A stretch of 64,000 bases of DNA. Source: a virus. Positions 2,899-33,306 of the stretch are shown piece after piece. The notes beneath the pieces are model-generated. The model saw nothing but the letters and a program-made list of their open reading frames with translations, had not been told where the DNA came from and did no database searches. The stretch covers positions 20,759 through 84,758 of the IMG/VR virus record IMGVR_UViG_3300009080_000001. One strand, given 5' to 3'. A program made the translations under genes and the position numbers. Each line of letters starts with the position of its first letter. The stretch's first letter is position 1.

Positions 2899-4800
2899 AT
2901 GAAATTGACTACTGATAACAAAACTGAAGACTTTGGACACAAGAAATTTAAGTTCAAGATCGACGAGAAACATGCCTTTAAAGCTATATGGGCATTGATT
3001 AATCTATATAAGTATAAGATCCAAACTCCAGTTCAAGAGGTTATATCGAACGCTAGGGATGCCCACAGAGAAGTAGGCAAGCCAGATCATACTTTTGATA
3101 TAAAGGTAACAGATACAGAGTTTATCGTTAGAGACTACGGTAGTGGTATTGATCCAGTAAAGGCTGAGAATATTTTTTGCTCTATTGGCGAGAGTACTAA
3201 GACAGGCGATAACGGTCAGACAGGCGGATTCGGTATTGGTGCAAAAAGTCCTCTAGCATACACTAAACAGTTTGAAATGATTAGTTATGTAGACGGTACT
3301 AAGTATCATTACTTCATTGCTAAAAATGGTGAAATGTTAGATATGAACTTAATCAGCACAGAGAGTACTAAAGCTAAAAACGGTACTAAGGTTATTATCC
3401 CTATTAAACAAAATACAGGATACTACAGAAACGAGTCTGATAAAAAGAGTTTTATTAAAGCAGTTGATAGGTGTTGTTATTTTTGGGAAAATAGACCTAA
3501 TTTTAACCACGAAATAGAGCCTCTAAAGCTGTTTAAAATAAAAGGTAAGTCTAACTATGCGTTTCATAATGCAAACATCGTAGACGGCAATCTCGTAGTT
3601 GTGGACGGTATCCCTTATAATGCTAATACTAATCAATGGAACTATAGCGGAAGTAGAGTAGCATTTTTCAATACTGGGGACTTAAGGATTCATGAGACTA
3701 GAGAAAGATTAGCAGATAATCCAGACGATAGTGCTTATAATATGGATAAAGTTAATGAAGCAATGGATTATATTAAAAACCATATGGACGTTAAACTTAA
3801 TGATTATATTGATAAAGATAGTATCTTTAAAAGTCTTAAAGTATTAAGTGATTTTGCTATACCTTTTAATTATAGACATGGTAACTATCGGTTTAAAAAC
3901 AGATTCATTGAGCTAGAGGGGTATGGTAAAAAATTCACTGTATATACTTCTAAATCAGGTGGTAGGTATCCATATAATTATAGATATAGAAAAGAAGATC
4001 AAAGTAGACTGAACTATAATGTCGAGGTATTTTATGATAATACCGGAGATAGTGTTCAAAAAGTTAGTCGTAGAGTAAAAGGTTACTTAACACAATTTGT
4101 TGAGAATAAAGAGAATAAAACTGTATATGTTACTACTAATAAACAGATAGCTAATATTTTCGGAGCAAAAGACTTAAGTACTTTAGAAGTGCCGAAAGTT
4201 AATAGAACTGGAGTTAAAAAACAAAATGAGCAGATAACTATTACAGAATTATATTGTTATGGTCAGAGTAGAATATATAAAAAACTTGATGATATTGTTA
4301 GTAAGTATATTTATTTAGGATTTAAAGAAGATATTAGTGAAACAATGAGATCTTTTTTAGATAGAAAAGGATATAGAGTCTGTAAACTTTCAAAAGATAA
4401 TATTGAAAAAGTTACAGGGCATGGAAAATTTACAGAGTATCATAATTTTGTTGAAAATTACAAATTGACTCAAGATGAAATAGACGGTATTTATTATTCA
4501 AGTATCAGGAGATATAACTTTAATGTAAATTTTACAGAGTTACTTGACAGTAAAATAAAAAGATACAAAGAAATTGCAGATCAATATAAAAGATGCGACA
4601 GTTATGGTGTGCCAGTTTCTCTTTATACAAAAGAAGTTGAGGCTACTATAGAAAAAATAAGTGCTGAGAACGCTGAGATTATCCATATAAAGGATTATAT
4701 TAGCGGAGAGTACCCTATGTTAGGTCACGGCAAAGACGTTAATACGGAGTATATCAACGCCATTTACAGCTATAGGAAAAATTTACATGGTGAAAAATAA
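2899..4800 (+). CDS. rIIA: rIIA-like protein with N-terminal GHKL/HSP90-type ATPase
   Basis: QEVISNARDAH, VRDYGSGI, GESTK and GGFGIGAKSPLAY motifs. Confidence 0.75.
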   Translation: MKLTTDNKTEDFGHKKFKFKIDEKHAFKAIWALINLYKYKIQTPVQEVISNARDAHREVGKPDHTFDIKVTDTEFIVRDYGSGIDPVKAENIFCSIGESTKTGDNGQTGGFGIGAKSPLAYTKQFEMISYVDGTKYHYFIAKNGEMLDMNLISTESTKAKNGTKVIIPIKQNTGYYRNESDKKSFIKAVDRCCYFWENRPNFNHEIEPLKLFKIKGKSNYAFHNANIVDGNLVVVDGIPYNANTNQWNYSGSRVAFFNTGDLRIHETRERLADNPDDSAYNMDKVNEAMDYIKNHMDVKLNDYIDKDSIFKSLKVLSDFAIPFNYRHGNYRFKNRFIELEGYGKKFTVYTSKSGGRYPYNYRYRKEDQSRLNYNVEVFYDNTGDSVQKVSRRVKGYLTQFVENKENKTVYVTTNKQIANIFGAKDLSTLEVPKVNRTGVKKQNEQITITELYCYGQSRIYKKLDDIVSKYIYLGFKEDISETMRSFLDRKGYRVCKLSKDNIEKVTGHGKFTEYHNFVENYKLTQDEIDGIYYSSIRRYNFNVNFTELLDSKIKRYKEIADQYKRCDSYGVPVSLYTKEVEATIEKISAENAEIIHIKDYISGEYPMLGHGKDVNTEYINAIYSYRKNLHGEK

Positions 4801-4832: not shown

Positions 4833-4878
4833 AATTATAGAAACTAAGTTGTTCTTAACAAACAGGAGGATAGAACAT

Positions 4879-6060
4879 ATGAAACTAACACAAATACCAC
4901 AAGCCGCAAAGGTTTGTTTCAAGAGTAAAGCAGCTACATTATGCCTAGTAGGAGTATCTGGATCTGGTAAGACAAGTATCTGGGGACAAACTTATAAGGA
5001 ACTAGGATTTGAAAATTATATTATCCTAAGACCTGCATTACTAGCTGATGCAGCAGATTTAATCGGTCTACCTGACTTTGAGATTATCGAGAAAGGTGGT
5101 AAGGCAGTTAAGACTACTGCATTTATGCGACCTAAATGGCTACCTTTTGAAGGTGATAATTGTTTGATTGTTATTGATGAGATTAACAGAGCAACTAAGG
5201 ACGTATCAAACGCATTGTTTGGACTGATTGAGTCGGAAGCCCCATTCATTGGTGAGTATAAACTTCCCGAAGGTTGTAAGGTAGTAGCAACGTGTAATCC
5301 GCCTACGGATAACTATGCAGGAGTACTAGACTTTGCAGATAGTGCATGGAGTTCAAGACTTAACTTTGTTAAGGTTGCACCAAGCTTAGAAACGTATACA
5401 AACTACGGTAGAGCTTCGGAAACTGTTAGTAACGTGATGTTAGACTTCCTAAATAAGAATGAAACTTTCTTTGGAACTAGCGGAGACTTTGATACTGATA
5501 TGTTTTTTACAGACGATAGTGAAGTTAAAGAGACTAATACAAGATCATTCTCAAAGGCATCGGCTATTCACGATACTGCTAAAGAGTTAGGCGTTGATAG
5601 AAATGTTACTTTTGAGTTAATAAAAGGAGTCGTTGGTACGGAATTTGCAACAGCATTTTTAAACTTTGCTGATACTTATAGTAATATCGTAACAGTTGAT
5701 GATCTACTTACAGATCCAGAGGCGCATACTAGATTCGATTATACGGCTCTCAGTGGTATCGCTAAGGTACTTCAAGACCTTAAGCATAAGTTAGGTAAGG
5801 GCGAAGTTGAAGAGGCTCAGATCCCGAATATAGCCCCTTTCCTTAAGCAGATCCCATTAGATACTCTTAAGGGATTTGTAGTGTACTTAGTAAAGGAAAA
5901 TAAGGACGAGAATGGTGCTTTAATGACGACATTCGCAGAAGCTTTAATTGACGATGATGAGATTAACGAGAAGTTAGACCTAGTTATGTCAGATGAAAGT
6001 ACTGAGGAGCTTATTGATTCTGACGAATCTGGAGAGGAGTCTGAAAATGAAGATAACTAA
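4879..6060 (+). CDS. MoxR-like AAA+ ATPase
   Basis: Walker A GVSGSGKT, Walker B IVIDEINR, VVATCNP, DSAWSSR; SD AGGAGG. Confidence 0.85.
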   Translation: MKLTQIPQAAKVCFKSKAATLCLVGVSGSGKTSIWGQTYKELGFENYIILRPALLADAADLIGLPDFEIIEKGGKAVKTTAFMRPKWLPFEGDNCLIVIDEINRATKDVSNALFGLIESEAPFIGEYKLPEGCKVVATCNPPTDNYAGVLDFADSAWSSRLNFVKVAPSLETYTNYGRASETVSNVMLDFLNKNETFFGTSGDFDTDMFFTDDSEVKETNTRSFSKASAIHDTAKELGVDRNVTFELIKGVVGTEFATAFLNFADTYSNIVTVDDLLTDPEAHTRFDYTALSGIAKVLQDLKHKLGKGEVEEAQIPNIAPFLKQIPLDTLKGFVVYLVKENKDENGALMTTFAEALIDDDEINEKLDLVMSDESTEELIDSDESGEESENEDN

Positions 6061-9720: not shown

Positions 9721-9930
9721 ATGAAGCAGATATTACTAGTACTAATGATGATAGGATTTACAGCGTGTTCAGGATTACCTGTAAAGCGTGGTGGTAGTAC
9801 CTCTATAGACCGCACAGAGCGTTGTGTGTTAAGGTTGGTAGAGAATAATGGGATTAGTGCGTCAGAGGCAGAGAAGGTATGTTCTAGGATATTTAGACGT
9901 AATTATGATACAATTGGGATTAAGAGGTAA
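9721..9930 (+). CDS. putative lipoprotein
   Basis: signal peptide with lipobox-like FTAC. Confidence 0.6.
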   Translation: MKQILLVLMMIGFTACSGLPVKRGGSTSIDRTERCVLRLVENNGISASEAEKVCSRIFRRNYDTIGIKR

Positions 9931-10172
9931 TGTTAAAAGTCGGAGATTATGTTTCTATTAAACAGGGTAAAAATCTAAAAGGCGATAAAGTTGGTGTATT
10001 TAGAAAAGTTACTGAATATATTGGTAAGTATGATTTATATAAAATAGAAGGTACTGAAGGTTATCCTTATTTTGAAGACGAGTTAGACGTTTATACTAGA
10101 GTTAAGAATACAAGACTTGCAAGGAAAATGTATCCAAAAGCAGTTGAAGAAAATGGTTGGTTGTATATATGA
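9930..10172 (+). CDS. TRLARK-module protein
   Basis: LKVGDYV; VKNTRLARKMYPKAVEENGWLYI. Confidence 0.8.
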   Translation: MLKVGDYVSIKQGKNLKGDKVGVFRKVTEYIGKYDLYKIEGTEGYPYFEDELDVYTRVKNTRLARKMYPKAVEENGWLYI

Positions 10173-10612
10173 AGTACTATAAACTACAAAACTATATGAA
10201 ACAAGCTGAGGTAATAGCTAAGAACTCTCCAGATACACAGAAACAAGTAGGAGCAGTACTAGTTAAGATAGATGGCGGAGAAGTTATAGCACAAGGTTAT
10301 AACGGATACGTAAGGAATACTATGACAGCATTGCCTACGACTAGACCAAAGAAGTATGAGTACATGATACATGCGGAAGAGAACGTGATATTAAACTGTG
10401 CTAGAAATGGCATTAGTACTAAAGACTGTTATTTAGTTTGCACTTTAAGTCCATGTAAATCATGTATGAGGAGAATGAAGCAAGCAGGAATTTCAACTAT
10501 TTACTTTAAAGAGAAGTACAAAGACTTCGAAGATCAGCTAACTATGAAAGATTTACAAATAGAGTTGACGCAGGTGAAGGATTACTATAGAATAAAGTTG
10601 GAGGTTAAATGA
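10169..10612 (+). CDS. dCMP deaminase
   Basis: QVGAVLV, GYNG, HAEEN, SPCKSC zinc deaminase motifs. Confidence 0.9.
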   Translation: MKYYKLQNYMKQAEVIAKNSPDTQKQVGAVLVKIDGGEVIAQGYNGYVRNTMTALPTTRPKKYEYMIHAEENVILNCARNGISTKDCYLVCTLSPCKSCMRRMKQAGISTIYFKEKYKDFEDQLTMKDLQIELTQVKDYYRIKLEVK

Positions 10613-17176: not shown

Positions 17177-17503
17177 GTGACCGATAATGAAGTGAATAAG
17201 ATTATAGCCGAGTATATAGGCGATCCTATCGAAGTAGAGATCGATGGTACGACTAAAATAATGGACGATATGGGGTATATGGAAAAAGACTTATACACAA
17301 AATCTCTAGACGCACTTGTGCCTGTTTGGGAGAAGTTAAAAAAAGACTTCACTATGGATAGAGATGAGTGGGGAATACACATGGCTTTTTATAAAGGAAC
17401 AGATGTTATAGTTAAAGAACAGAATGTTGGATCAATTCAACAAACAATGGCACACGCAACAGCAAAAGCAATAATAAATATGGAGGAAGAAAATGATGGC
17501 TAA
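17177..17503 (+). CDS. hypothetical phage protein (ABA-sandwich-like pattern)
   Basis: EVNKIIAEYIG...YTKSLDALVPVWEKL...ATAKAI. Confidence 0.5.
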   Translation: MTDNEVNKIIAEYIGDPIEVEIDGTTKIMDDMGYMEKDLYTKSLDALVPVWEKLKKDFTMDRDEWGIHMAFYKGTDVIVKEQNVGSIQQTMAHATAKAIINMEEENDG

Positions 17504-19415
17504 ATACCACAGAGTATGTACGAGTTTAAAAGACAAAGGAACATTAATCCCAGAAGGGGCTGATTTAGACAAATATAAAGCAGGAGAAGCTTATATTTCA
17601 GCATATCAGTACAATGAAGATCACAAGAAGTTATTTGATAAAAACAAGTCAGTAGCGGGAATTACAGACGTTACTACAGATATAATCTACTTCGATTTAG
17701 ATAATGAAGATATTGAAGTTGCAAGAAAAGATACTATTGAGGTTGTGAACCGATTGGCAAACTATGAGATTACCTCCAATCAAATCAAAACGTGCCTTTC
17801 AGGAAATAAGGGTTTTCACTTAGCCCTACACACAACTGAAACATTCACTCCAGAAGAAGCTAGGTCGTTAGCTATTAAATTAGCTGGCGATCTGGACTCT
17901 TTTGACTCAAGTATTTACAATGCTAACAGAATTATCAGGATTGAAGGAAGTGTCCATCCAAAGACCCAATTACGTAAAACAGAGCTTACATTTAAGGAGC
18001 TTCAGACGCTCAGTATTGGCGATATAAAGGACTTAGCTAAAGACGAGTACGATTACCTTAAACCGTCTAAAATAGAGCCTATAGAGTCGTTTATGAAGCT
18101 TACAGAGAGTGTTATAAAGAAGGATAAAGCCGAGAATATTGAGACTACGGAAACGCTTGATTATTTGTCTAATCCGTACAAGTTACAGCCTTGGAAATTA
18201 GCATTATCTCAAGGATTCTTTCCAAATGGAAATAGAAGTAATTCATTGATGATTTTAGGAGCTACTTTAAAGAATAAAGGGTTACTGAAAGAACAGTGTT
18301 ATTATGCCCTGAAAGCAGCCGCTGATTTACAGTCAGATAGATATGGTAAAGATAAATTTAAGAAAGAGGAGATTTGGGAAAAGGTTATTGAGCAAATTTA
18401 CAAAGCTACTTGGAATAATGGTAGTTACTCAGAAGATCACTTTCCAACTCAGTTACAAGCTTATTTTGAAGAGTTAGGGATACCTAGAAAGGAATATGCT
18501 GAGATAGCTAGTGATGTAGTTAGTATCGATGATAAGTTCGATGATTTCGTTAATTATGCAACTAATATTGATGAACATACTATGACGTTTGGTATTCCAA
18601 GTTTAGATAATGCTTTAAAAGTTAGAAAGGGTCATTTAATCGGACTACTAGCCGGACCGGGAATTGGTAAGACTAGTTTCGCTATTACATTCTTAAATAA
18701 CTGTTCTAAGCAAGGTTCTAAGTGCTTTTTCGGTTCATACGATATGTATTCACTAAATGTTTACCAGAAACTAATACAAAGACATACAGGTTATACTGAA
18801 GATGAAATGTTCCAATTTTTCAAAGATAAAGATAAAAAGAAGATTGAGGAATTTAGAGGAATCTTAAATACCGAGTATGAGAATGTATCATTCTGTTTTA
18901 AATCTGGACAATCAATTAGTGACCTTAAGAAGTCAATTGAGATGAAAGAAGAAGAGATGGGTGAGAAGATGGGACTAGTTGTAATTGATTATTTAGAGCT
19001 AGTACAAGTTGATGTTGCAGATGCTACAGCTAAAAGTTTAGAAGCTGTTAACGGACTTAGAGAGATTGCTAATGAAGGAAGGGTAGTTGTAGTACTATTA
19101 CAACCTAATAAGATTAGCTCTAAGCCAGATCAGCCGCTATTAAGCTATAATGCAGCAAAAGGTTCATCAATGGTAGCACAAGCAGTTACAGCTATGTTAA
19201 CGTGTCATAGACCGGGCTATAGCTCAGAGAATCCAGAGAATGATCTGTATTTCAGCGTTAATTGTGTTAAGAATCGTAATGGTGCTTTATTTCAAAGAGA
19301 CTTCGGCTGGATAGGTAAGACCCAGACTATTTTCGAGATGGGAGATGATGAGAGATTTGCCTTGAATTTATTAAGAGATACTAAAAGGGACGCTGATGAT
19401 GACGATGGTTATTAG
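17493..19415 (+). CDS. primase-helicase (AEP primase + DnaB/SF4 helicase)
   Basis: YFDLD, SGNKGFH, RIIRI.GS.H; Walker A GPGIGKTS, VVIDYL, LLQ, KNRNG. Confidence 0.9.
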   Translation: MMAKYHRVCTSLKDKGTLIPEGADLDKYKAGEAYISAYQYNEDHKKLFDKNKSVAGITDVTTDIIYFDLDNEDIEVARKDTIEVVNRLANYEITSNQIKTCLSGNKGFHLALHTTETFTPEEARSLAIKLAGDLDSFDSSIYNANRIIRIEGSVHPKTQLRKTELTFKELQTLSIGDIKDLAKDEYDYLKPSKIEPIESFMKLTESVIKKDKAENIETTETLDYLSNPYKLQPWKLALSQGFFPNGNRSNSLMILGATLKNKGLLKEQCYYALKAAADLQSDRYGKDKFKKEEIWEKVIEQIYKATWNNGSYSEDHFPTQLQAYFEELGIPRKEYAEIASDVVSIDDKFDDFVNYATNIDEHTMTFGIPSLDNALKVRKGHLIGLLAGPGIGKTSFAITFLNNCSKQGSKCFFGSYDMYSLNVYQKLIQRHTGYTEDEMFQFFKDKDKKKIEEFRGILNTEYENVSFCFKSGQSISDLKKSIEMKEEEMGEKMGLVVIDYLELVQVDVADATAKSLEAVNGLREIANEGRVVVVLLQPNKISSKPDQPLLSYNAAKGSSMVAQAVTAMLTCHRPGYSSENPENDLYFSVNCVKNRNGALFQRDFGWIGKTQTIFEMGDDERFALNLLRDTKRDADDDDGY

Positions 19416-19896
19416 ATATATTAGAGCAGGACTAATAGGTATTGTTTGCGGAATACTCTATTCAGGCTGTTCACATGGGGTTATCAAAAGCAAACCTATA
19501 CACACTAAACTTACTCCAGAATTGGAGAAGTATCGTGGGTATGTTCAAAAGATATCAAAAGGGAAGCTTGGTAATAAAGAGATAACCATTGGATATAGAA
19601 AGTTTAATGATAAAGATCCGAATTTATTAGGAGTATGTACATTTACTTTAGAAAACTTAGGAAAAGAGATTGACATAGTAGAAGAAGCATGGCAGTATCT
19701 AAATCATGGTGAGAAGCTTTTATTAGTAGCTCATGAATTTAGACATTGTGAATGTAATGAACTTGGTCACGAAGAAAGGTATTTTAAAGATAAGTGTTCA
19801 AAAACTATTATGCATAAATACTTACCAGATAGAGGTTGTATTAAAAAACATATGAATGATTATTTGGAAGAGATTAGGAGAGGTTGTGGAGATTAA
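19396..19896 (+). CDS. lipoprotein zinc metallopeptidase (metzincin-like)
   Basis: lipobox-like LYSGC; HEFRH...GH and a KTIMH Met-turn. Confidence 0.65.
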   Translation: MMTMVIRYIRAGLIGIVCGILYSGCSHGVIKSKPIHTKLTPELEKYRGYVQKISKGKLGNKEITIGYRKFNDKDPNLLGVCTFTLENLGKEIDIVEEAWQYLNHGEKLLLVAHEFRHCECNELGHEERYFKDKCSKTIMHKYLPDRGCIKKHMNDYLEEIRRGCGD

Positions 19897-20140
19897 AGTT
19901 GGGTGGAAATATGCTATTGAAGTAATTAGTGATAATTATACGTTTACCGTCACTAATTATGACGAAGTAGAAGGAAGAGTCTTCGGGATAGATGGATGCG
20001 GTATTGAAGACATTTGGAGCGTATCTACATTTCAAAAATACGCTACTCCTCTATATATAGAAGTTAAAGCAACAAGATTAGCACGTAAAATGTTCCCGAA
20101 TGCTGAAGAAGAAAACGGAATGTTGATACTGGAGGAATAA
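19886..20140 (+). CDS. TRLARK-module protein
   Basis: IKVGWKY; VKATRLARKMFPNAEEENGMLIL. Confidence 0.75.
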   Translation: MEIKVGWKYAIEVISDNYTFTVTNYDEVEGRVFGIDGCGIEDIWSVSTFQKYATPLYIEVKATRLARKMFPNAEEENGMLILEE

Positions 20141-20549: not shown

Positions 20550-20822
20550 ATGGTGAGTGAAAGTTGGGTTGGCAGGAAAGTAAGGTTTAAGAATTGGCCA
20601 GAGTGTATGTATTGGTATATAGAAAAGGAAGATTCTGGTAATTATATCGGAACTGTATTTGCTCATAATAAAGTACAGGAAACTGAATTCAATATTACCA
20701 AGAGGTTTACACATAAACGATATTTTTTAATTGACACAAAAGTAAAGGACACCAGACTTGCACGTAAAATGTATCCAGATTTTAAGGAAACTGAAGATGG
20801 TTATTTATTAATAATGAGGTAA
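20550..20822 (+). CDS. TRLARK-module protein
   Basis: WVGRKV; VKDTRLARKMYPDFKETEDGYLLI. Confidence 0.8.
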   Translation: MVSESWVGRKVRFKNWPECMYWYIEKEDSGNYIGTVFAHNKVQETEFNITKRFTHKRYFLIDTKVKDTRLARKMYPDFKETEDGYLLIMR

Positions 20823-20824
20823 TA

Positions 20825-23197
20825 GTGAAAGAACGTAAACTAGTAATAGTTGATAATATAAAGAAATTAGCAGAAGCTATAACACATATAAATACTTACG
20901 ATATATTAGCATACGATATAGAAACTACTGGACTTATTCCTACTAAGGAAAAGGTTATAGGGTTCTCAGTATGCGGTAAAGTAGGTGAAGCATATTATAT
21001 TCCACATTTAACTTGGGATACTACCAAAAATAAACTAGTCGAAGTATTCAGCTTCAGTAAAATATCCTCCATTTTAAATTCGTTAAAAGGTAAAGAGTTA
21101 CTGATGTGGAACGGTAGTTTCGACGTTAGATTCACCAGAGATTATTTCGATATAGACCTTACAGAAGAATTATTCGCAGATATTATGTTAATGAAACATA
21201 CAGTAGAAGAAGAGGGTCAATTTAGCTTAAAAGGCTGTGCAATCCAGTACCAAGAAGAGATTGGACTAGATGTAGCAGAAGACGCTAACAAAGAGCAGAT
21301 AGCCTTAAAAGAGAACGTAGCTAAGAATGGCGGTACAACTACTAGAGCTAAGTACGAGATGTATAAGGCTGATCTAGACGTTATGGGTGTGTATGCCGCA
21401 GCCGATGCAGACCTTACATTAAGACTTGCAAACCTATTCAGAGAAAAGCTTGAAAAAGAGGAATTAGAGGACTTCTTTTATGATGAAGAAGTTATGCCTT
21501 TATATAAGTATGTAACAATGACAATGGAATCTAATCCAGTACAATTAGATATTGATAAACTTAAATACTACAAACATAAGATAGAGCAAGATATAGTTAA
21601 ATTACATGATGCTATTGTTGCAGACTTATTAACAAGCGTTAAAGTACAAGCATGGTTAGAAGAAGTAGCTAAGACTAAATATCCGCCAAAACCTACTGGA
21701 AACTACGCTCAAAGAGTGGTAGAGAAATTCGGACTAGATTTACCAAAATCAGCATCAGGGAAGTACAGTATTTCCAGAAAGAATGTTGAGAAATTACCAG
21801 ATAGTGACGCTAAAAGCTTCTTATTAAAAGAGAGTAATATAGAGCCGGAATTTAAGGTAAAAGATACAAGGTTAGCACGTAAGATGTATCCGGGCTGTGT
21901 AGAGAAAGATGGTTGGTTAGTACCTGCTCAAGATATGTCAAGTATTTCAGTTGAATTATGGGAAGAACATAATGGTGGTAAAATCAATATCTCATCTAAA
22001 AAGCAAATGGGTGAAATAGTATTTAATTACATGAAAGTTAAGCCTTTAACTAAGACCTTAAAAGGTGCGCCACAATTTAACGATGCTTTAATTCAATATT
22101 TAGCTGATAATCAGTTTTCTTGGGCTAATGACCTTAGTGACTACAATAAGCTAATTAAGATCAAGTCAGCATATATCGATAGATTCTTGGATAATAACCA
22201 AGATGGTAATTATTACTTTTATTACAAACAACATGGAACATTATCAGGACGATATAGTTCTGACGCACAGCAGCTACCAAGACCTAAAGAAGATGGAGAA
22301 CTATCACCATTAGTACTTGAATATAACAATGCTATTAGGTCGTTCTTTGTCGCTGGTGAAGGTCGTAAGTTTATTGATGCCGATTATGAGTCGTTAGAGC
22401 CACATGTATTTGCACATGTATCAGGTGATGATGGGTTGAGAAATATCTTCCGTAAAGGTCATGATTTTTATAGTACTATTGCTATTCAAACAGAGAAGCT
22501 TGGGGAATTTAGTGCGGATAAGAAGTCCGAAAGTTACCTTGGGAAATTAAACAAACCATTACGCCAGAAGGCTAAGGCTTATAGTCTAGGCGTTCCATAT
22601 GGCATGACACCTTATGCCCTAGCTAAGACATTAGAAGTGGATGAGAAGGAAGCTAAGAAGCTATATGATGGGTATTTAGACGGGTTTCCAGAGCTTAAGA
22701 AGTGGATGCAGAAGAGTAAGAGAGATGCACAGTACAAAGGATTCGTTAAGACGCAAACTGGACGTATTAGGCACTTAGATAGGGTTAAAGAGCTACATGC
22801 TGAACATGGTGAGAAATTACTTAATTTTAAATACCGTAAAAAGCTTGAAAAACAAGTAGCTAAGAAACTTGGTGGATTTGAAGCATCTAAAGAAGTTAAA
22901 GGTATGTACCTTGATTATAAGAATGGTATAAATAATAGCCGCAACTTTCAGATTCAAGGATTATCGGCTAGTATTGTAAATAAATCCATGATACTGATTA
23001 TGCAGGATTTTAGGGACGAGAATATAGACGGTTACGTATGTGCAACAGTACATGATCAGATTATTGTTAACGTATCTGATTTAGATCTTGACAGAGCTAT
23101 AGAAATAGTGCAATATAGAATGACAACGGTTGTTGAGCTATCAGTTGATCTGAAAGCTCCGCCAGAAATTAGCGATAATTTTAGAGATGGACATTAA
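20825..23197 (+). CDS. polA: family A DNA polymerase (3'-5' exonuclease + polymerase) with thumb insertion containing the TRLARK module
   Basis: Exo DIETTG, NGSFD, YAAADA; motif A DADYESLE, motif B RQKAKAYSLGVPYG, motif C VHDQ; GTLSGRYSS. Confidence 0.95.
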   Translation: MKERKLVIVDNIKKLAEAITHINTYDILAYDIETTGLIPTKEKVIGFSVCGKVGEAYYIPHLTWDTTKNKLVEVFSFSKISSILNSLKGKELLMWNGSFDVRFTRDYFDIDLTEELFADIMLMKHTVEEEGQFSLKGCAIQYQEEIGLDVAEDANKEQIALKENVAKNGGTTTRAKYEMYKADLDVMGVYAAADADLTLRLANLFREKLEKEELEDFFYDEEVMPLYKYVTMTMESNPVQLDIDKLKYYKHKIEQDIVKLHDAIVADLLTSVKVQAWLEEVAKTKYPPKPTGNYAQRVVEKFGLDLPKSASGKYSISRKNVEKLPDSDAKSFLLKESNIEPEFKVKDTRLARKMYPGCVEKDGWLVPAQDMSSISVELWEEHNGGKINISSKKQMGEIVFNYMKVKPLTKTLKGAPQFNDALIQYLADNQFSWANDLSDYNKLIKIKSAYIDRFLDNNQDGNYYFYYKQHGTLSGRYSSDAQQLPRPKEDGELSPLVLEYNNAIRSFFVAGEGRKFIDADYESLEPHVFAHVSGDDGLRNIFRKGHDFYSTIAIQTEKLGEFSADKKSESYLGKLNKPLRQKAKAYSLGVPYGMTPYALAKTLEVDEKEAKKLYDGYLDGFPELKKWMQKSKRDAQYKGFVKTQTGRIRHLDRVKELHAEHGEKLLNFKYRKKLEKQVAKKLGGFEASKEVKGMYLDYKNGINNSRNFQIQGLSASIVNKSMILIMQDFRDENIDGYVCATVHDQIIVNVSDLDLDRAIEIVQYRMTTVVELSVDLKAPPEISDNFRDGH
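21857..21922 (+). repeat. TRLARK peptide module embedded in PolA
   Basis: VKDTRLARKMYPGCVEKDGWLV in frame. Confidence 0.9.
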
Positions 23198-23753
23198 TAT
23201 GGGTAAATTTTCAAGAAAAGAACAATGGAGTCTTATAGAGAAAGGTAAAAAAGGTTGTTCTGTTTGTGGTGATATTTTAGAATTAGATTGTTTTAGAAAA
23301 ACTGGAAAAGTAAATAAACAAGGAATTGTAGGTTACAGAAGCAATTGCAGGTACTGTAAACACGTAGATCAGATGAGTAGAAAAGGACACAATCCTAGGA
23401 ATAAAGATGATTTTTGGCATAGACATGGACTAAGAGATGAAGGGTTCATAGATAAAGCAGGAAAAGCAAGGAACTACGAAAGAGATAGAGTTAATTTTAT
23501 AAGGAGAGTTTATAATGTTGACTTTAAAGAAGCTTTAGATTTACATAAAAGATCACTACATGATACTTGTGAGATATGTGGAAAAGGGTTTGAAGACAAC
23601 GGTAAAGCTCTAGCTGTAGATCACTGTCACAGTAACGGGCATGTTAGAGGTATATTATGTGAAGTATGTAATAAAGGATTAGGACACTTTAAAGATAACG
23701 TAGATGTTATGAAAAATGCTATCAAATATTTAGAAGAAAAAAGGGAGAAATAA
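23187..23753 (+). CDS. endonuclease VII-family (His-Me) nuclease
   Basis: CEICG...LAVDHCH..GHVRGILCEVCNKGLGHFKDN. Confidence 0.9.
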   Translation: MDINMGKFSRKEQWSLIEKGKKGCSVCGDILELDCFRKTGKVNKQGIVGYRSNCRYCKHVDQMSRKGHNPRNKDDFWHRHGLRDEGFIDKAGKARNYERDRVNFIRRVYNVDFKEALDLHKRSLHDTCEICGKGFEDNGKALAVDHCHSNGHVRGILCEVCNKGLGHFKDNVDVMKNAIKYLEEKREK

Positions 23754-27354: not shown

Positions 27355-27553
27355 TATGTTATTGTCTATACGGGACGATATCTATACTTACAGTAATTGT
27401 CCCGAAGAAGAAATAGATAAATTAGCCAACATTATACTTAAAAATATCGAGGATTATGGGATGAAACCTCCCGGAAGATGGTCCTCAGTACTAAGAGGGA
27501 ATACTGCTAAAAGAGAGATAGCGAGATGTTCGTGGGAGGATGAAGATGAGTAA
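27335..27553 (+). CDS. hypothetical protein
   Basis: MKRSDML...IEDYGMKPP...WEDE. Confidence 0.55.
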   Translation: MLMKRSDMLLSIRDDIYTYSNCPEEEIDKLANIILKNIEDYGMKPPGRWSSVLRGNTAKREIARCSWEDEDE

Positions 27554-28112
27554 AGATACTTTTAAAGAAAACTTGGAAATGTTCCACTCTAGTAATATAC
27601 ATATACCTTCAAGAAGTATATTATTATCTGGAGAAATTACAGTAGAAAAAAGAGATGAGTTTCTAAAGAATATATTAACACTTGATGAAAAGGGTCACGA
27701 TATTATAGTATACCTATCTAGTGAAGGTGGTTACACAGATCAAGGTAAGTCGATATATGACTTGATTAAAACTAGAGATTCTAATATAAAAGGTATAGTA
27801 CTAGATGAAGCTAGTTCAAGTGCAAGTTTTATACTCCAAGCTTGTGACGAAAGGATTATGTTTCCAAATAGTTACTTAATGGTACATATTGGAGAAGAGG
27901 CTACAGGTGGACATCCTAACACTAAGAAAGCTTGGGATAAGAAGTATGAAGAAGATACAAAGATAATGGAAGATATGTATTTAAAGAGGATTAAAGAAAA
28001 AAAACCAAGATATACAAGAAAACAGTTGCAAAACATGTTAACTTTTGATACTATCTTGAATCCTAAGAAAGCAATTGAGCTTGGATTAGCAGATAAGGTA
28101 TATGGTGATTAA
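27540..28112 (+). CDS. clpP: ClpP-like serine protease
   Basis: YLSSEGG, EASSSASFIL (Ser), NSYLMVH (His), FDTILNPKKAIELGLADKV. Confidence 0.85.
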   Translation: MKMSKDTFKENLEMFHSSNIHIPSRSILLSGEITVEKRDEFLKNILTLDEKGHDIIVYLSSEGGYTDQGKSIYDLIKTRDSNIKGIVLDEASSSASFILQACDERIMFPNSYLMVHIGEEATGGHPNTKKAWDKKYEEDTKIMEDMYLKRIKEKKPRYTRKQLQNMLTFDTILNPKKAIELGLADKVYGD

Positions 28113-29960: not shown

Positions 29961-30295
29961 AAGGTTATATAAAGATAAAAGTACCAATGTATCGACAGAA
30001 AGGACTAGTTCCTGATATGTGGACATGTACTTATTATGAGAAATTCCCGTACATTTATATGTCAGAAGACTTAACTCACTATTTAAGTAAATGGTTAGAA
30101 ATTAAAGGTGTTAGATGTTCAGTAGGTGGTATGGTACATAGAGGATTTAGAACTCACTATATTATAGATAGAGATAAGATGATAACTAGAGTACGTGATA
30201 CTAGATTAGCTAGGAAGGTATTAAAAGAGGACGAGATACTTAAAATTAAAGATGGTTGGATATATATGTTTAATGAGGAGGTTAGACTTGGCTAA
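29957..30295 (+). CDS. TRLARK-module protein
   Basis: VRDTRLARKVLKEDEILKIKDGWIYM. Confidence 0.75.
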   Translation: MKGYIKIKVPMYRQKGLVPDMWTCTYYEKFPYIYMSEDLTHYLSKWLEIKGVRCSVGGMVHRGFRTHYIIDRDKMITRVRDTRLARKVLKEDEILKIKDGWIYMFNEEVRLG

Positions 30296-30680
30296 GAAAC
30301 TAGATAAAGGTAAACCTAGAATGGATTTAATTAATCCAAGGTTTTTAGAGGAATTAGGAGAAGGATTAGGTTTCGGAGCTAGTAAGTACTCTGATTATAA
30401 TTACAGAGAAGGTGAAGGTCTGGATAGATCGAGACTGTATGCATCGGCAATGAGACATCTCTTAAAATATGCTAAAGGTGAAAAAATAGATGAAGAAAGT
30501 GACATTTCGCACTTGACCGCAGTAGCAATTAATTGTATGATGATTTATACCCTTGAAGAAGAAAACAAGGGGACTGAGTATGACGCTTGGGTTATGGAGG
30601 AAACTGATGACACAAAAGAAAATCCCTCAAAAGAAGGATCTCAAAGACGAAAGGTTAAACAAGTTACAAAGAAGAGTTAA
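30288..30680 (+). CDS. dATP/dGTP diphosphohydrolase-like protein (DUF5664-type)
   Basis: KLDKGKPRMDLI...FGASKY..YNYR...SAMRHL...GEKIDEES..SHL. Confidence 0.8.
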   Translation: MAKKLDKGKPRMDLINPRFLEELGEGLGFGASKYSDYNYREGEGLDRSRLYASAMRHLLKYAKGEKIDEESDISHLTAVAINCMMIYTLEEENKGTEYDAWVMEETDDTKENPSKEGSQRRKVKQVTKKS

Positions 30681-32034: not shown

Positions 32035-32264
32035 TGGATACTACGTTATTAATATATTGTGTTATATCATTCATAGGTACAGTGTTGCACGGTTTTTATA
32101 CTGAATATTTTAAATATGATAAAGCAACTTTAACTATTTTAGAAATTATACAGATATTTGTTTGTGGTTTTATGGGGCCTGTAATTTTTCCGATTATGTT
32201 ATTTTTTTGGATAATAAATAGGGACTTTTGGAATAAAGAAGTATTCAAAAAAGGTGAAGAATGA
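32034..32264 (+). CDS. two-TM membrane protein
   Basis: hydrophobic helices. Confidence 0.55.
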   Translation: MDTTLLIYCVISFIGTVLHGFYTEYFKYDKATLTILEIIQIFVCGFMGPVIFPIMLFFWIINRDFWNKEVFKKGEE

Positions 32265-32485
32265 TCGGTTGGAAAAACGTAAAAGATACAAGATTAGCTA
32301 GAAAGATGTTCCCTGACTTTAAAGAGTCCGAAAAAGACGGGTATATTATGATCCCAGAACCTATAGATTTAACTAATACTACGTTTGCTGAAAGAGCACA
32401 TATAGCTGAACAATTGTTACAATACGGACTTATTACTACAAAAGAAGAATATTTAAAAATAATTGATAATATCCAACAAAAGTAG
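32261..32485 (+). CDS. protein with N-terminal TRLARK module
   Basis: MIGWKNVKDTRLARKMFPDFKESEKDGYIMIP followed by a helical domain. Confidence 0.75.
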   Translation: MIGWKNVKDTRLARKMFPDFKESEKDGYIMIPEPIDLTNTTFAERAHIAEQLLQYGLITTKEEYLKIIDNIQQK

Positions 32486-32541: not shown

Positions 32542-33306
32542 ATGAAGAAACTACTTTTAGCAATTATGCTACTACCAACACTGGCATTCGCCAATCTAAA
32601 CACAATCAAACTTACTGATAAAAACACTATCAGTTTCAACGAACAATTCAATGCAATGACTGTTGCAGCAAAACAAGCACAATTATTCGAATTAGCATCT
32701 AGTTCACAAGAAAAGGACTTATATATAGTTATGTATACTCCCGGTGGCTCAGTATCTGCTGGAGCTTTATTTATCGATACAGCAAGAGCATTAGGTAAGA
32801 ACATTCACACAATCACTATTTTCAGCGCATCTATGGGCTACCACACCGTTCAAGGACTTGGCAAGAGGTATATTCTACCATCTGGGGTTCTAATGTCTCA
32901 CAGAGCTTATGTAAGCGGATTACAGGGTCAATTTCCGGGTGAACTAAATCAAAGAGTTGAGATGCTTATGAAGTCTACTGAAGACCTTGATAAGATTGCT
33001 GCTGCTAGAGTTGGTTTAAGTCTTAAGGAATACAAATCTACTATTCACGATGAACTATGGTTAACTGGTGCTGATGCTGTTAAAAGAGGTCATGCTGATG
33101 AAGTTGTACAAGCTATCTGTGGAGAAAGTCTAAGTGGATTATACGAGAAAGTATTTAACACATTCTTTGGACCAGTTATTGTTGAATTTGCTAATTGTCC
33201 ATTAATTGTAGGACCAGTTAATATCAAAGGATCAAACGAAGCAATTATGGAAGTTAAAAAGAACATCCTAGACGATGTAACTAAAAAGGTTAAAACACTA
33301 CTATAA
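32542..33306 (+). CDS. ClpP-like protease with N-terminal signal peptide
   Basis: MKKLLLAIMLLPTLAFA; YTPGGSV, FSASMG, LMSH, ELWLTGADAVKRGHADEV. Confidence 0.8.
   Translation: MKKLLLAIMLLPTLAFANLNTIKLTDKNTISFNEQFNAMTVAAKQAQLFELASSSQEKDLYIVMYTPGGSVSAGALFIDTARALGKNIHTITIFSASMGYHTVQGLGKRYILPSGVLMSHRAYVSGLQGQFPGELNQRVEMLMKSTEDLDKIAAARVGLSLKEYKSTIHDELWLTGADAVKRGHADEVVQAICGESLSGLYEKVFNTFFGPVIVEFANCPLIVGPVNIKGSNEAIMEVKKNILDDVTKKVKTLL

What the first reader, a model, noticed from the sequence alone, without database searches (positions are those of the whole stretch)
21632..21960. TRLARK module sits in the DNA polymerase thumb, at the T7 thioredoxin-binding-domain position
Seen: a ~110-aa insertion containing a complete module (VKDTRLARKMYPGCVEKDGWLV, 21857-21922) lies between thumb helix H (KLKYYKHKIEQDIVKLHDAIVADLL) and GGKINISSKKQMGEIVF, which is equivalent to E. 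coli PolI GEEFNLSSTKQLQTILF. Established: T7 gp5 carries its processivity-factor (thioredoxin) binding domain in this H-H1 thumb loop. Inference: the module may bind a processivity or DNA-tracking hub, or other tagged proteins. If so, the 22 small tagged proteins could be recruited to, or compete at, the replisome. Its tolerance inside an essential enzyme argues it is a self-contained folded unit.
Basis: partly seen in the sequence, partly recalled or inferred. Interest (0 to 1): 0.9.

Follow-up and report, generated by a model that had tools for sequence, protein, structure and literature searches.

The report
Shared peptide tag inside polymerase thumb
An uncultured 85-kb phage carries, at the tip of its DNA polymerase thumb (where phage T7 polymerase binds thioredoxin), the same ~25-residue folded tag that ends about two dozen of its small early proteins; the tag changed in step on the small proteins of a related lineage, which suggests that the tags dock to one shared, still unknown partner.

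Summary
The phage PolA (window 20825-23197, 790 aa) carries the "TRLARK" module at residues 344-367 (21854-21925), upstream of thumb helix H1, the position of the T7 thioredoxin-binding domain. The ~110-aa insertion is two things. One is a helical thumb-tip insertion (median 89 aa) shared by all 119 homologues examined. The other is a ~25-aa module nested in its hypervariable loop, found only in one subclade.

The module is a portable strand-helix-hairpin unit. It is predicted with the same secondary structure in the polymerase and in a small KOW/SH3-like protein. It is selected at protein level (dN/dS ~0.19 in the polymerase). It matches no Pfam or PHROG family and no paper I found.

The profile finds 230 protein clusters with it in 1.84 billion.

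This genome has 24 copies, all basic at helix positions 2 and 6. A related phage has 10 copies, all acidic/aromatic there, including syntenic orthologues. A polymerase from that sister lineage carries the same switch.

This fits docking to a shared partner, which I could not identify. The polymerase copy is dispensable: one sublineage deleted it while its small proteins kept theirs. A processivity role is untested.

First readers of this scan noted the box in this genome; I found no note of it on other DNA.

The parts
20825..23197 (+). Family A DNA polymerase with 3'-5' exonuclease, 790 aa
   Evidence: PF00476 E 1.1e-61 and PF01612 E 1.8e-09. AlphaFold2 pLDDT 93.4. Foldseek top hits are phage G20c Pol I and Klenow.
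21551..21628 (+). Thumb helix H (residues 243-268)
   Evidence: DSSP on the model. The start of Klenow helix H aligns up to pol residue 252.
21629..21973 (+). Thumb-tip insertion upstream of helix H1 (residues 269-383). It consists of a helical scaffold plus the nested module.
   Evidence: About 115 aa where Klenow has about 14. Median 89 aa in 119 homologues. Present in Flavobacterium phage immuto and in IMG/VR relatives at 45-51% identity.
21854..21925 (+). TRLARK module (residues 344-367): strand 345-346, helix 349-354, hairpin 359-361/364-366
   Evidence: 52 bits against the module profile. Secondary structure. Absent from the eight homologues at 36-51% identity. dN/dS 0.19 against L095.
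21998..22030 (+). Thumb helix H1 (residues 392-402; SSKKQMGEIVF region)
   Evidence: Aligns to Klenow 'SSTKQLQTILF'. Helix in the model.
19856..20140 (+). Small tagged protein (94 aa) with a C-terminal module, two genes upstream of pol
   Evidence: 54.7 bits.
20550..20822 (+). Small tagged protein (90 aa) with a C-terminal module. Its stop lies just before the pol start.
   Evidence: 59.7 bits.
9930..10172 (+). Small tagged protein (80 aa) used as the structural reference: KOW/SH3-like barrel plus module
   Evidence: AlphaFold2 pLDDT 87, with 91-96 over the module. Residues 1-57 match uL24 and NusG-KOW at Z 7.8.
17493..19415 (+). T7 gp4-type primase-helicase whose C-terminus is an acidic tail ending in Tyr (DADDDDGY)
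   Evidence: PHROG DnaB-like helicase and primase hits. Tail read. Related tails in 10 loci.

Best explanation
The TRLARK box is a small, autonomously folding strand-helix-hairpin module (~25 aa). It serves as a common docking tag for one partner that is not yet identified, either phage or host. About two dozen small early proteins of this phage carry it, many of them KOW/SH3-like, usually at the C-terminus. One copy was captured in the hypervariable loop of an older ~89-aa helical insertion at the thumb tip of the replicative PolA, the site where T7 polymerase binds thioredoxin. There it has been kept under purifying selection and has followed the same lineage-specific changes on the exposed face of its helix as the tags on the small proteins. 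The most likely effect is that the polymerase is tethered to, or competes for, the partner that the small proteins bind. That could couple the replisome to this partner or let the small proteins modulate it.

Shown: position, nesting, fold prediction, protein-level selection, phylogenetic distribution and the concerted signature switch. Inferred: that the switch reflects a shared binding partner, and that binding matters for replication.
For: 1. Portable unit. The same strand-helix-hairpin is predicted in pol (345-366, pLDDT 70-80) and in an 80-aa protein (57-79, pLDDT 91-96). It sits at C-termini, at N-termini (window 32261-32485) and internally.

2. Protein-level selection. Synonymous codons vary freely. 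In pol, dN/dS is 0.19 for the module and 0.16 for the surrounding scaffold. The 7-residue linker just before it has decayed to 18% pairwise identity, against 53% for the module.

3. Concerted signature. All 24 copies in this genome have R/K at helix position 2 and K at position 6. All 10 copies in L094 have E/D and F/Y there. These include syntenic orthologues with pair-specific flanks, which argues against gene conversion.

4. The polymerase copy takes part in the switch. The P0027 pol module reads T-D-L-S-K-F. A small protein, P0260, reads T-D-L-A-K-F and has the same longest-contig length (13,714 bp), source and contig count, so it is probably on the same contig. P0027 is sister (support 1.0) to the L094-type polymerases.

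5. Co-occurrence. 170 loci (2.35 Mb) around polymerases at 59% identity or less, and five related records (three of them at least 93% complete), have no module anywhere.

6. A module-like insert at the same loop in P0039 lies in an otherwise module-less clade (support 0.976). This suggests a second capture.

7. Precedent. The T7 TBD at this thumb position binds thioredoxin and the acidic tail of the helicase (PMC5997990; PMC10201439).
Against: No partner is identified.

The polymerase copy is dispensable. The P0032/P0034/L094 polymerases deleted it while their small proteins keep the tag.

Signature uniformity is not absolute.

The loop is permissive. Other homologues carry unrelated inserts of 27-35 aa there.

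Purifying selection on an inserted fold may reflect only the cost of misfolding.

The signature change could be compensated within the module, for example by an E2-R5 salt bridge in the helix.
Confidence: 0.45

Rival explanations
1. Tolerated passenger. The module was copied into a permissive, hypervariable thumb loop by illegitimate recombination with one of the many tagged genes. It persists only because it folds on its own and does no harm, and it has no role in the polymerase.
For: The loop takes unrelated inserts in other homologues: P0066 with 35 aa and P0065 with 27 aa. One sublineage lost the module cleanly while its small proteins kept theirs. Signature residues are eroded in P0033 and P0039. 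Conservation of the module equals that of the surrounding, fast-evolving thumb insertion, not that of the core.
Against: dN/dS is 0.19, and the hydrophobic core is conserved across polymerases that share only about 62-91% identity with the window's, while the adjacent linker decayed to 18%. The P0027 copy carries the rare acidic/aromatic signature of its lineage. A second capture at the same loop is possible.
Confidence: 0.27
2. Direct DNA grip. The basic helix (K-V-K-D-T-R-L-A-R-K) adds a positive patch at the thumb tip that contacts the nascent duplex and raises intrinsic processivity. The small proteins would be nucleic-acid binders that use the same element.
For: The thumb tip lies over the product duplex in family A polymerases, and the T7 TBD crosslinks to the template (PMC9198812). 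The module has a net charge of about +3 (sequence). The N-terminal domain of the small proteins is KOW/SH3-like, a fold common in nucleic-acid binders.
Against: A whole lineage replaced R/K with E/D and K with F/Y on the exposed face in all 10 copies and in a polymerase copy. That is hard to reconcile with contacts to the phosphate backbone.
Confidence: 0.12
3. T7-like tail docking. The module is the basic patch that receives the acidic, aromatic-ended C-terminal tail of the phage primase-helicase (DADDDDGY), or of an SSB. The small tagged proteins would compete for those tails.
For: The helicase is gp4-like and ends in an acidic tail with a terminal Tyr. Related helicases end similarly. In T7 such a tail binds a basic patch in the TBD (PMC5997990).
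Against: The L094 helicase tail is still acidic (DAEDDDY), although all L094 modules lost the basic face and its polymerase lacks the module. The conserved 89-aa scaffold is also lysine-rich and could serve as the patch. No SSB was recognised.
Confidence: 0.1
4. Degradation tag. The box marks early proteins, and the polymerase, for the phage's own ClpP-type protease.
For: The early arm holds two PF00574 ClpP genes (27540-28109 and 32542-33303) and an AAA+ gene.
Against: The module-less relative G001 also has two ClpP genes. The box lies at a variable distance from the C-terminus, and also at N-termini and internally. It is predicted as a well-folded unit rather than a disordered degron.
Confidence: 0.05

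Closest known systems
Thioredoxin-binding domain (TBD) of phage T7 DNA polymerase gp5
   Same: Both are insertions at the thumb tip upstream of helix H1 in a phage replicative family A polymerase. In T7 this site binds an accessory protein and the acidic tail of the gp4 helicase (PMC10201439, PMC5997990). Here too the phage has a gp4-like primase-helicase with an acidic tail that ends in an aromatic residue.
   Different: No sequence similarity was seen. The scaffold here is helical (~89 aa) and carries a nested 25-aa module that also occurs on dozens of other proteins. Thioredoxin binding is neither indicated nor tested. The module is dispensable in one sublineage.
Hub-docking short motifs shared by polymerases and many other proteins (beta-clamp-binding motif QL[SD]LF, PIP box, SSB C-tail clients); from general knowledge
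   Same: One short element recurs on a polymerase and on many otherwise unrelated proteins. This implies competition for, or recruitment to, a single partner.
   Different: The TRLARK box is a folded ~25-aa mini-domain, not a linear peptide. It does not match the clamp motif. No clamp was recognised among the proteins searched. The partner is unknown.
Other structured thumb insertions of phage PolAs: the phiKMV-like ~100-aa insertion and the POP hairpin (Czernecki et al. 2023, PMC10201439)
   Same: They are lineage-specific ordered insertions at the thumb tip, positioned near the nascent duplex.
   Different: The phiKMV insertion follows H1 and is built of beta-strands. None is reported to contain a module shared with other proteins of the same phage.
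Small KOW/SH3-like phage proteins (T4 Y07B-like; uL24 / NusG-KOW fold)
   Same: The N-terminal 57 residues of a tagged small protein match this fold at Z 7.8. The Atlas search lists a cluster in which 16-26% of members carry the T4 Y07B family (PF27001).
   Different: Neither the structure search nor the Atlas search matched the C-terminal module. The polymerase copy has no KOW domain.

Membership tests
Family A DNA polymerase with proofreading exonuclease | PF00476 polymerase domain and PF01612 3'-5' exonuclease domain, Klenow-like fold | tested here: met
   (209 and 38 bits, both above cut-off). (pLDDT 93.4). (Klenow and G20c, E 1e-30).
T7-type thioredoxin-binding domain | Insertion located between thumb helices H and H1 | tested here: met
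   Klenow alignment and model secondary structure. The TBD precedes H1 (PMC10201439). No superposition on T7 gp5 was made.
T7-type thioredoxin-binding domain | Sequence or structural homology to the T7 TBD loop | tested here: inconclusive
   T7 gp5 is not among the 67 PDB sequences at E<=1e-5 (60 listed). The insertion was not folded or searched on its own.
T7-type thioredoxin-binding domain | Binds host thioredoxin and thereby gains processivity | not testable with these tools
Beta-clamp-binding motif clients | QL[SD]LF-type pentapeptide, and a clamp in the phage or host replisome | tested here: not met
   The module consensus xVKxTRLA[RK]KMYPxAxExDGWLxI has no such peptide. No clamp was found among the proteins searched.
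C-terminal degron of a Clp protease | Unstructured tag at the extreme C-terminus, specific to genomes with the protease | tested here: not met
   Copies lie 0-73 residues from the C-terminus, and one is internal in pol. The module is predicted folded, pLDDT 91-96. The ClpP pair is also present in module-less G001.
Any curated protein family for the module | Match to a Pfam or PHROG model | tested here: not met
   No Pfam hit for the insertion or for two tagged proteins. No PHROG hit for ten tagged proteins. No tblastn hit in 50,697 phage records.
KOW/SH3-like small proteins (carriers of the module) | Five-stranded barrel with an N-terminal KVGD-type strand | tested here: met
   Residues 1-57 match uL24 and NusG KOW at Z 7.8, rmsd 1.4-2.1. 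The KVGD motif is conserved in the 88-sequence alignment A7.

The most novel reading that the evidence does not exclude
The TRLARK box defines an undescribed phage tagging system. Two dozen early proteins and the replicative polymerase of one phage share a folded 25-residue docking module for a single hub. The binding face was re-coded in concert (R/K..K to E/D..F/Y) across a whole sublineage, polymerase copy included. The small proteins would then be competitors or adaptors that act at the replisome through the thumb-tip site that T7 uses for its processivity factor.
Probability: 0.35. Interest if true: 0.85.

Novelty: new variant of a known kind. Interest (0 to 1): 0.62.

Why it matters
Thumb-tip insertions are how some family A polymerases acquire accessory factors, and T7 with thioredoxin is the textbook case. 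Here the insert is not a private loop. It is a copy of a module spread over dozens of proteins of the same phage, and its exposed face changed in step across genes. If the partner is found, it would give a natural example of a viral hub-and-tag network that includes the replicative polymerase. It would also offer a way to assign function to a large set of unannotated small phage proteins (230 clusters), and a compact portable docking module of possible use in polymerase engineering.

Tried and rejected
1. DNA-level repeat, regulatory site or mobile element. Rejected: third codon positions vary freely, and the same-codon fraction is 0.55 against 0.43 expected.

2. ClpP degron. Not supported: the ClpP pair also occurs in module-less G001.

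3. Module-module or thumb-small-protein binding. One complex-prediction job (pol 236-410 plus the 80-aa tagged protein) gave no verdict: median score 0.11 against a mark of 0.32. This is no evidence either way.

4. Word search for small proteins sharing 5-mers with the P0027 pol module. No hits. This is uninformative, because TELARF-type tags share no 5-mer with it.

I could therefore not read the contigs of P0027, P0031, P0033, P0037 and P0039, and used contig lengths from the listing of cluster members instead. The second look-up gave no further links.

6. IMG/VR scans with P0036 and P0027 returned only polymerases at 54% identity or less.

7. Searches of Pfam, PHROGs, the phage collection and papers for the module. 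No matches.

8. The structure search of the small protein matched only its KOW/SH3 domain.

9. No SSB or clamp was recognised among the 30 proteins scanned.

Full report
WHAT IS THERE

The window is bases 20759-84758 of an 84,758-bp IMG/VR phage record with direct terminal repeats and 34% G+C. ORF 20825-23197 (+, 790 aa) is a family A DNA polymerase with a 3'-5' exonuclease domain (PF00476 E 1.1e-61, PF01612 E 1.8e-09). Its closest deposited relative is Flavobacterium phage vB_FspM_immuto at 45% identity. The motif VKDTRLARKMYPGCVEKDGWLV is at 21857-21922, exactly as reported.

POSITION IN THE THUMB

HMMER alignment to Klenow places pol residues 381-400 on 'EIAGEEFNLSSTKQLQTILF'. Pol ~181-252 aligns to the segment that runs into helix H. 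About 115 residues (269-383) therefore occupy the place of about 14 in Klenow.

The AlphaFold2 model was built from 117 homologues (pLDDT 93.4, pTM 0.87). It shows, in order:
- helix H at 243-268;
- short helices at 272-285, 292-302, 318-322 and 328-333;
- a strand (345-346), a helix (349-354) and a hairpin (359-361, 364-366), which together are the module (pLDDT 70-80);
- a helix at 371-383;
- helix H1 at 392-402.

The T7 TBD likewise precedes H1 (PMC10201439). So the topological claim holds. I did not superpose the model on T7 gp5.

TWO NESTED INSERTIONS

Eight homologues at 36-51% identity (immuto and IMG/VR loci) have the helical insertion but lack the module. Among 119 homologues the insertion has a median of 89 aa (range 85-116). 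The loop that corresponds to pol 334-373 is 13-14 aa in most. It is 36-40 aa in module bearers, and P0066 and P0065 carry unrelated inserts of 35 and 27 aa there. The module is therefore a secondary insertion of ~25 aa in a hypervariable loop of an older thumb-tip insertion shared by the family.

THE MODULE FAMILY

A profile finds 24 copies at E<1e-3 in this genome. All are on the + strand, between 12 and 55 kb of the genome. Most are C-terminal, three are N-terminal and one is internal, in the polymerase.

The invariant residues are encoded by many synonymous codons. The same codon is used at 55% of identical residues against 43% expected from codon usage. Conservation is therefore at protein level and the copies are old.

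A profile search of 1.84 billion representative proteins found 230 clusters at E<=0.001. Nearly all of the 150 listed are 70-175 aa proteins with the module at the C-terminus. There is no Pfam or PHROG match, no tblastn hit in 50,697 phage records, and no paper containing the string 'TRLARK'.

An 80-aa tagged protein folds with pLDDT 87 into two parts. Residues 1-57 form a KOW/SH3-like barrel that matches uL24 and NusG-KOW at Z 7.8. The module follows as strand 57-59, helix 62-67 and hairpin 72-74/77-79, with pLDDT 91-96. This is the same secondary-structure pattern as in the polymerase.

DISTRIBUTION AMONG POLYMERASES

A graded series of homologues and a tree built with the module columns masked give the following picture:
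- Module-bearing polymerases fall in one clade: the window's polymerase, P0006, P0018, P0021, P0026-P0031, P0033 and P0037. The clade itself has weak support (0.33). The larger clade that also includes the module-less P0035, P0036 and P0038 has support 0.97.
- Within the clade, P0032 and P0034 lack the module. They are sister to P0027 with support 1.0, so this is a deletion.
- P0039 has a module-like insert (13.5 bits) at the same loop, yet it sits with support 0.976 in a clade that otherwise lacks the module. That means either a second capture or many losses.

Across the 12 bearers, mean pairwise identity by region is as follows:

| Region | Pairwise identity |
|---|---|
| Module | 0.53 |
| Scaffold | 0.59 |
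| 7-residue linker before the module | 0.18 |
| Catalytic core | 0.80 |

Against L095, dN/dS is 0.19 for the module, 0.16 for the scaffold and 0.05 for the core (only 24 codons for the module).

CO-OCCURRENCE AND CONCERTED CHANGE

170 loci (2.35 Mb) around polymerases at 59% identity or less contain no module. Neither do five related records, three of them at least 93% complete.

L094 is a 22-kb stretch of a 39.5-kb contig whose polymerase is 71% identical to this one and lacks the module. It has 10 module copies. All 10 have E or D at helix position 2 and F or Y at position 6. All 24 copies in this genome have R or K at position 2 and K at position 6.

Several L094 copies are syntenic orthologues of genes in this genome, with pair-specific flanking residues. 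The same double substitution therefore happened in many genes along one lineage, and gene conversion is unlikely.

The polymerase of the sister lineage, P0027, has T-D-L-S-K-F in its module. A small protein, P0260, has T-D-L-A-K-F and shares P0027's longest-contig length (13,714 bp), source and contig count. The acidic/aromatic class makes up about 10% of representatives.

Small proteins of this class (the P0228 cluster) share contig lengths of 4,687, 5,419 and 57,071 bp with module-less polymerases of the P0032 cluster.

Taken together, the polymerase copy took part in the switch and was later deleted in one branch while the small proteins kept their tags.

INTERPRETATION

A concerted change on the exposed face of a helix (positions i and i+4) in many unrelated carriers is best explained by co-evolution with one partner. 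That the polymerase copy follows the change, and is under purifying selection, suggests it binds the same partner. I put this at 0.45.

The rivals, in order of weight:
- A tolerated passenger (0.27). In its favour are the permissive loop and the clean loss.
- A direct DNA grip (0.12). Against it is the charge reversal.
- Docking of the acidic tail of the gp4-like helicase, which ends in DADDDDGY (T7 precedent PMC5997990) (0.10). Against it, the L094 tail stays acidic although its modules lost the basic face.
- A Clp degron (0.05). Against it, module-less G001 also has two ClpP genes.

LIMITS

- The module alone was not fold-searched.
- The single complex prediction gave no verdict.

NOVELTY

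Thumb-tip accessory insertions are a known kind; T7 TBD, Pol gamma AID and the phiKMV insertion are reviewed in PMC10201439. An insert that is a copy of a tag shared by dozens of proteins of the same phage, and that evolves in concert with them, was not described in anything I could search. Earlier notes of this scan report other phage PolAs with foreign elements at the thumb tip (an HTH domain, a clamp-binding peptide). They are untested here, but they suggest the site is used repeatedly.

Noticed in passing
window 27540-28109 and 32542-33303; also 4849-6060: The early arm holds two ClpP-family genes (PF00574, 79 and 69 bits) and an AAA+ ATPase (PF07728/PF00004). The module-less relative G001 also has two ClpP genes. 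I did not check the catalytic triad.
   Followed up: partly
window 19389-19412 (end of primase-helicase 17493-19415): The gp4-like primase-helicase ends in the acidic tail DADDDDGY. Related helicases end in DAEDDDY, EDDSSF or DDGW-type tails. This recalls the T7 gp4 tail that binds the polymerase. G001 has no homologue of this helicase.
   Followed up: partly
window 32261-32485: A 74-aa protein has an N-terminal module followed by a segment that matches the portal-gene region of relative G001 (62% identity over 29 aa, E 7e-07).
   Followed up: partly
window 23187-23753: An HNH / endonuclease VII-like gene (188 aa) overlaps the 3' end of the polymerase gene. It has no counterpart in L094 or G001, so it is probably a mobile homing endonuclease.
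   Followed up: no
L008:2971-6312; P0140: Some homologous polymerases are 1,101-1,114 aa long. P0140 carries intein/LAGLIDADG domains (PF14528, PF14890), so inteins occur in this polymerase family.
   Followed up: no
window 30252-30680 and 10157-10612: The first gene has a dATP/dGTP diphosphohydrolase N-terminal domain (PF18909, E 3.7e-27). The second is a dCMP deaminase (PF00383). Together they hint at remodelling of the nucleotide pool or at modified DNA.
   Followed up: no
window 2899-4800: An rIIA-like protein (PHROG 612, E 1.2e-46) lies in the early arm.
   Followed up: no
P0066, P0065 (homologous polymerases): Unrelated inserts of 35 and 27 aa occupy the same thumb loop that holds the module here. 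The loop is a hot spot for insertions.
   Followed up: partly
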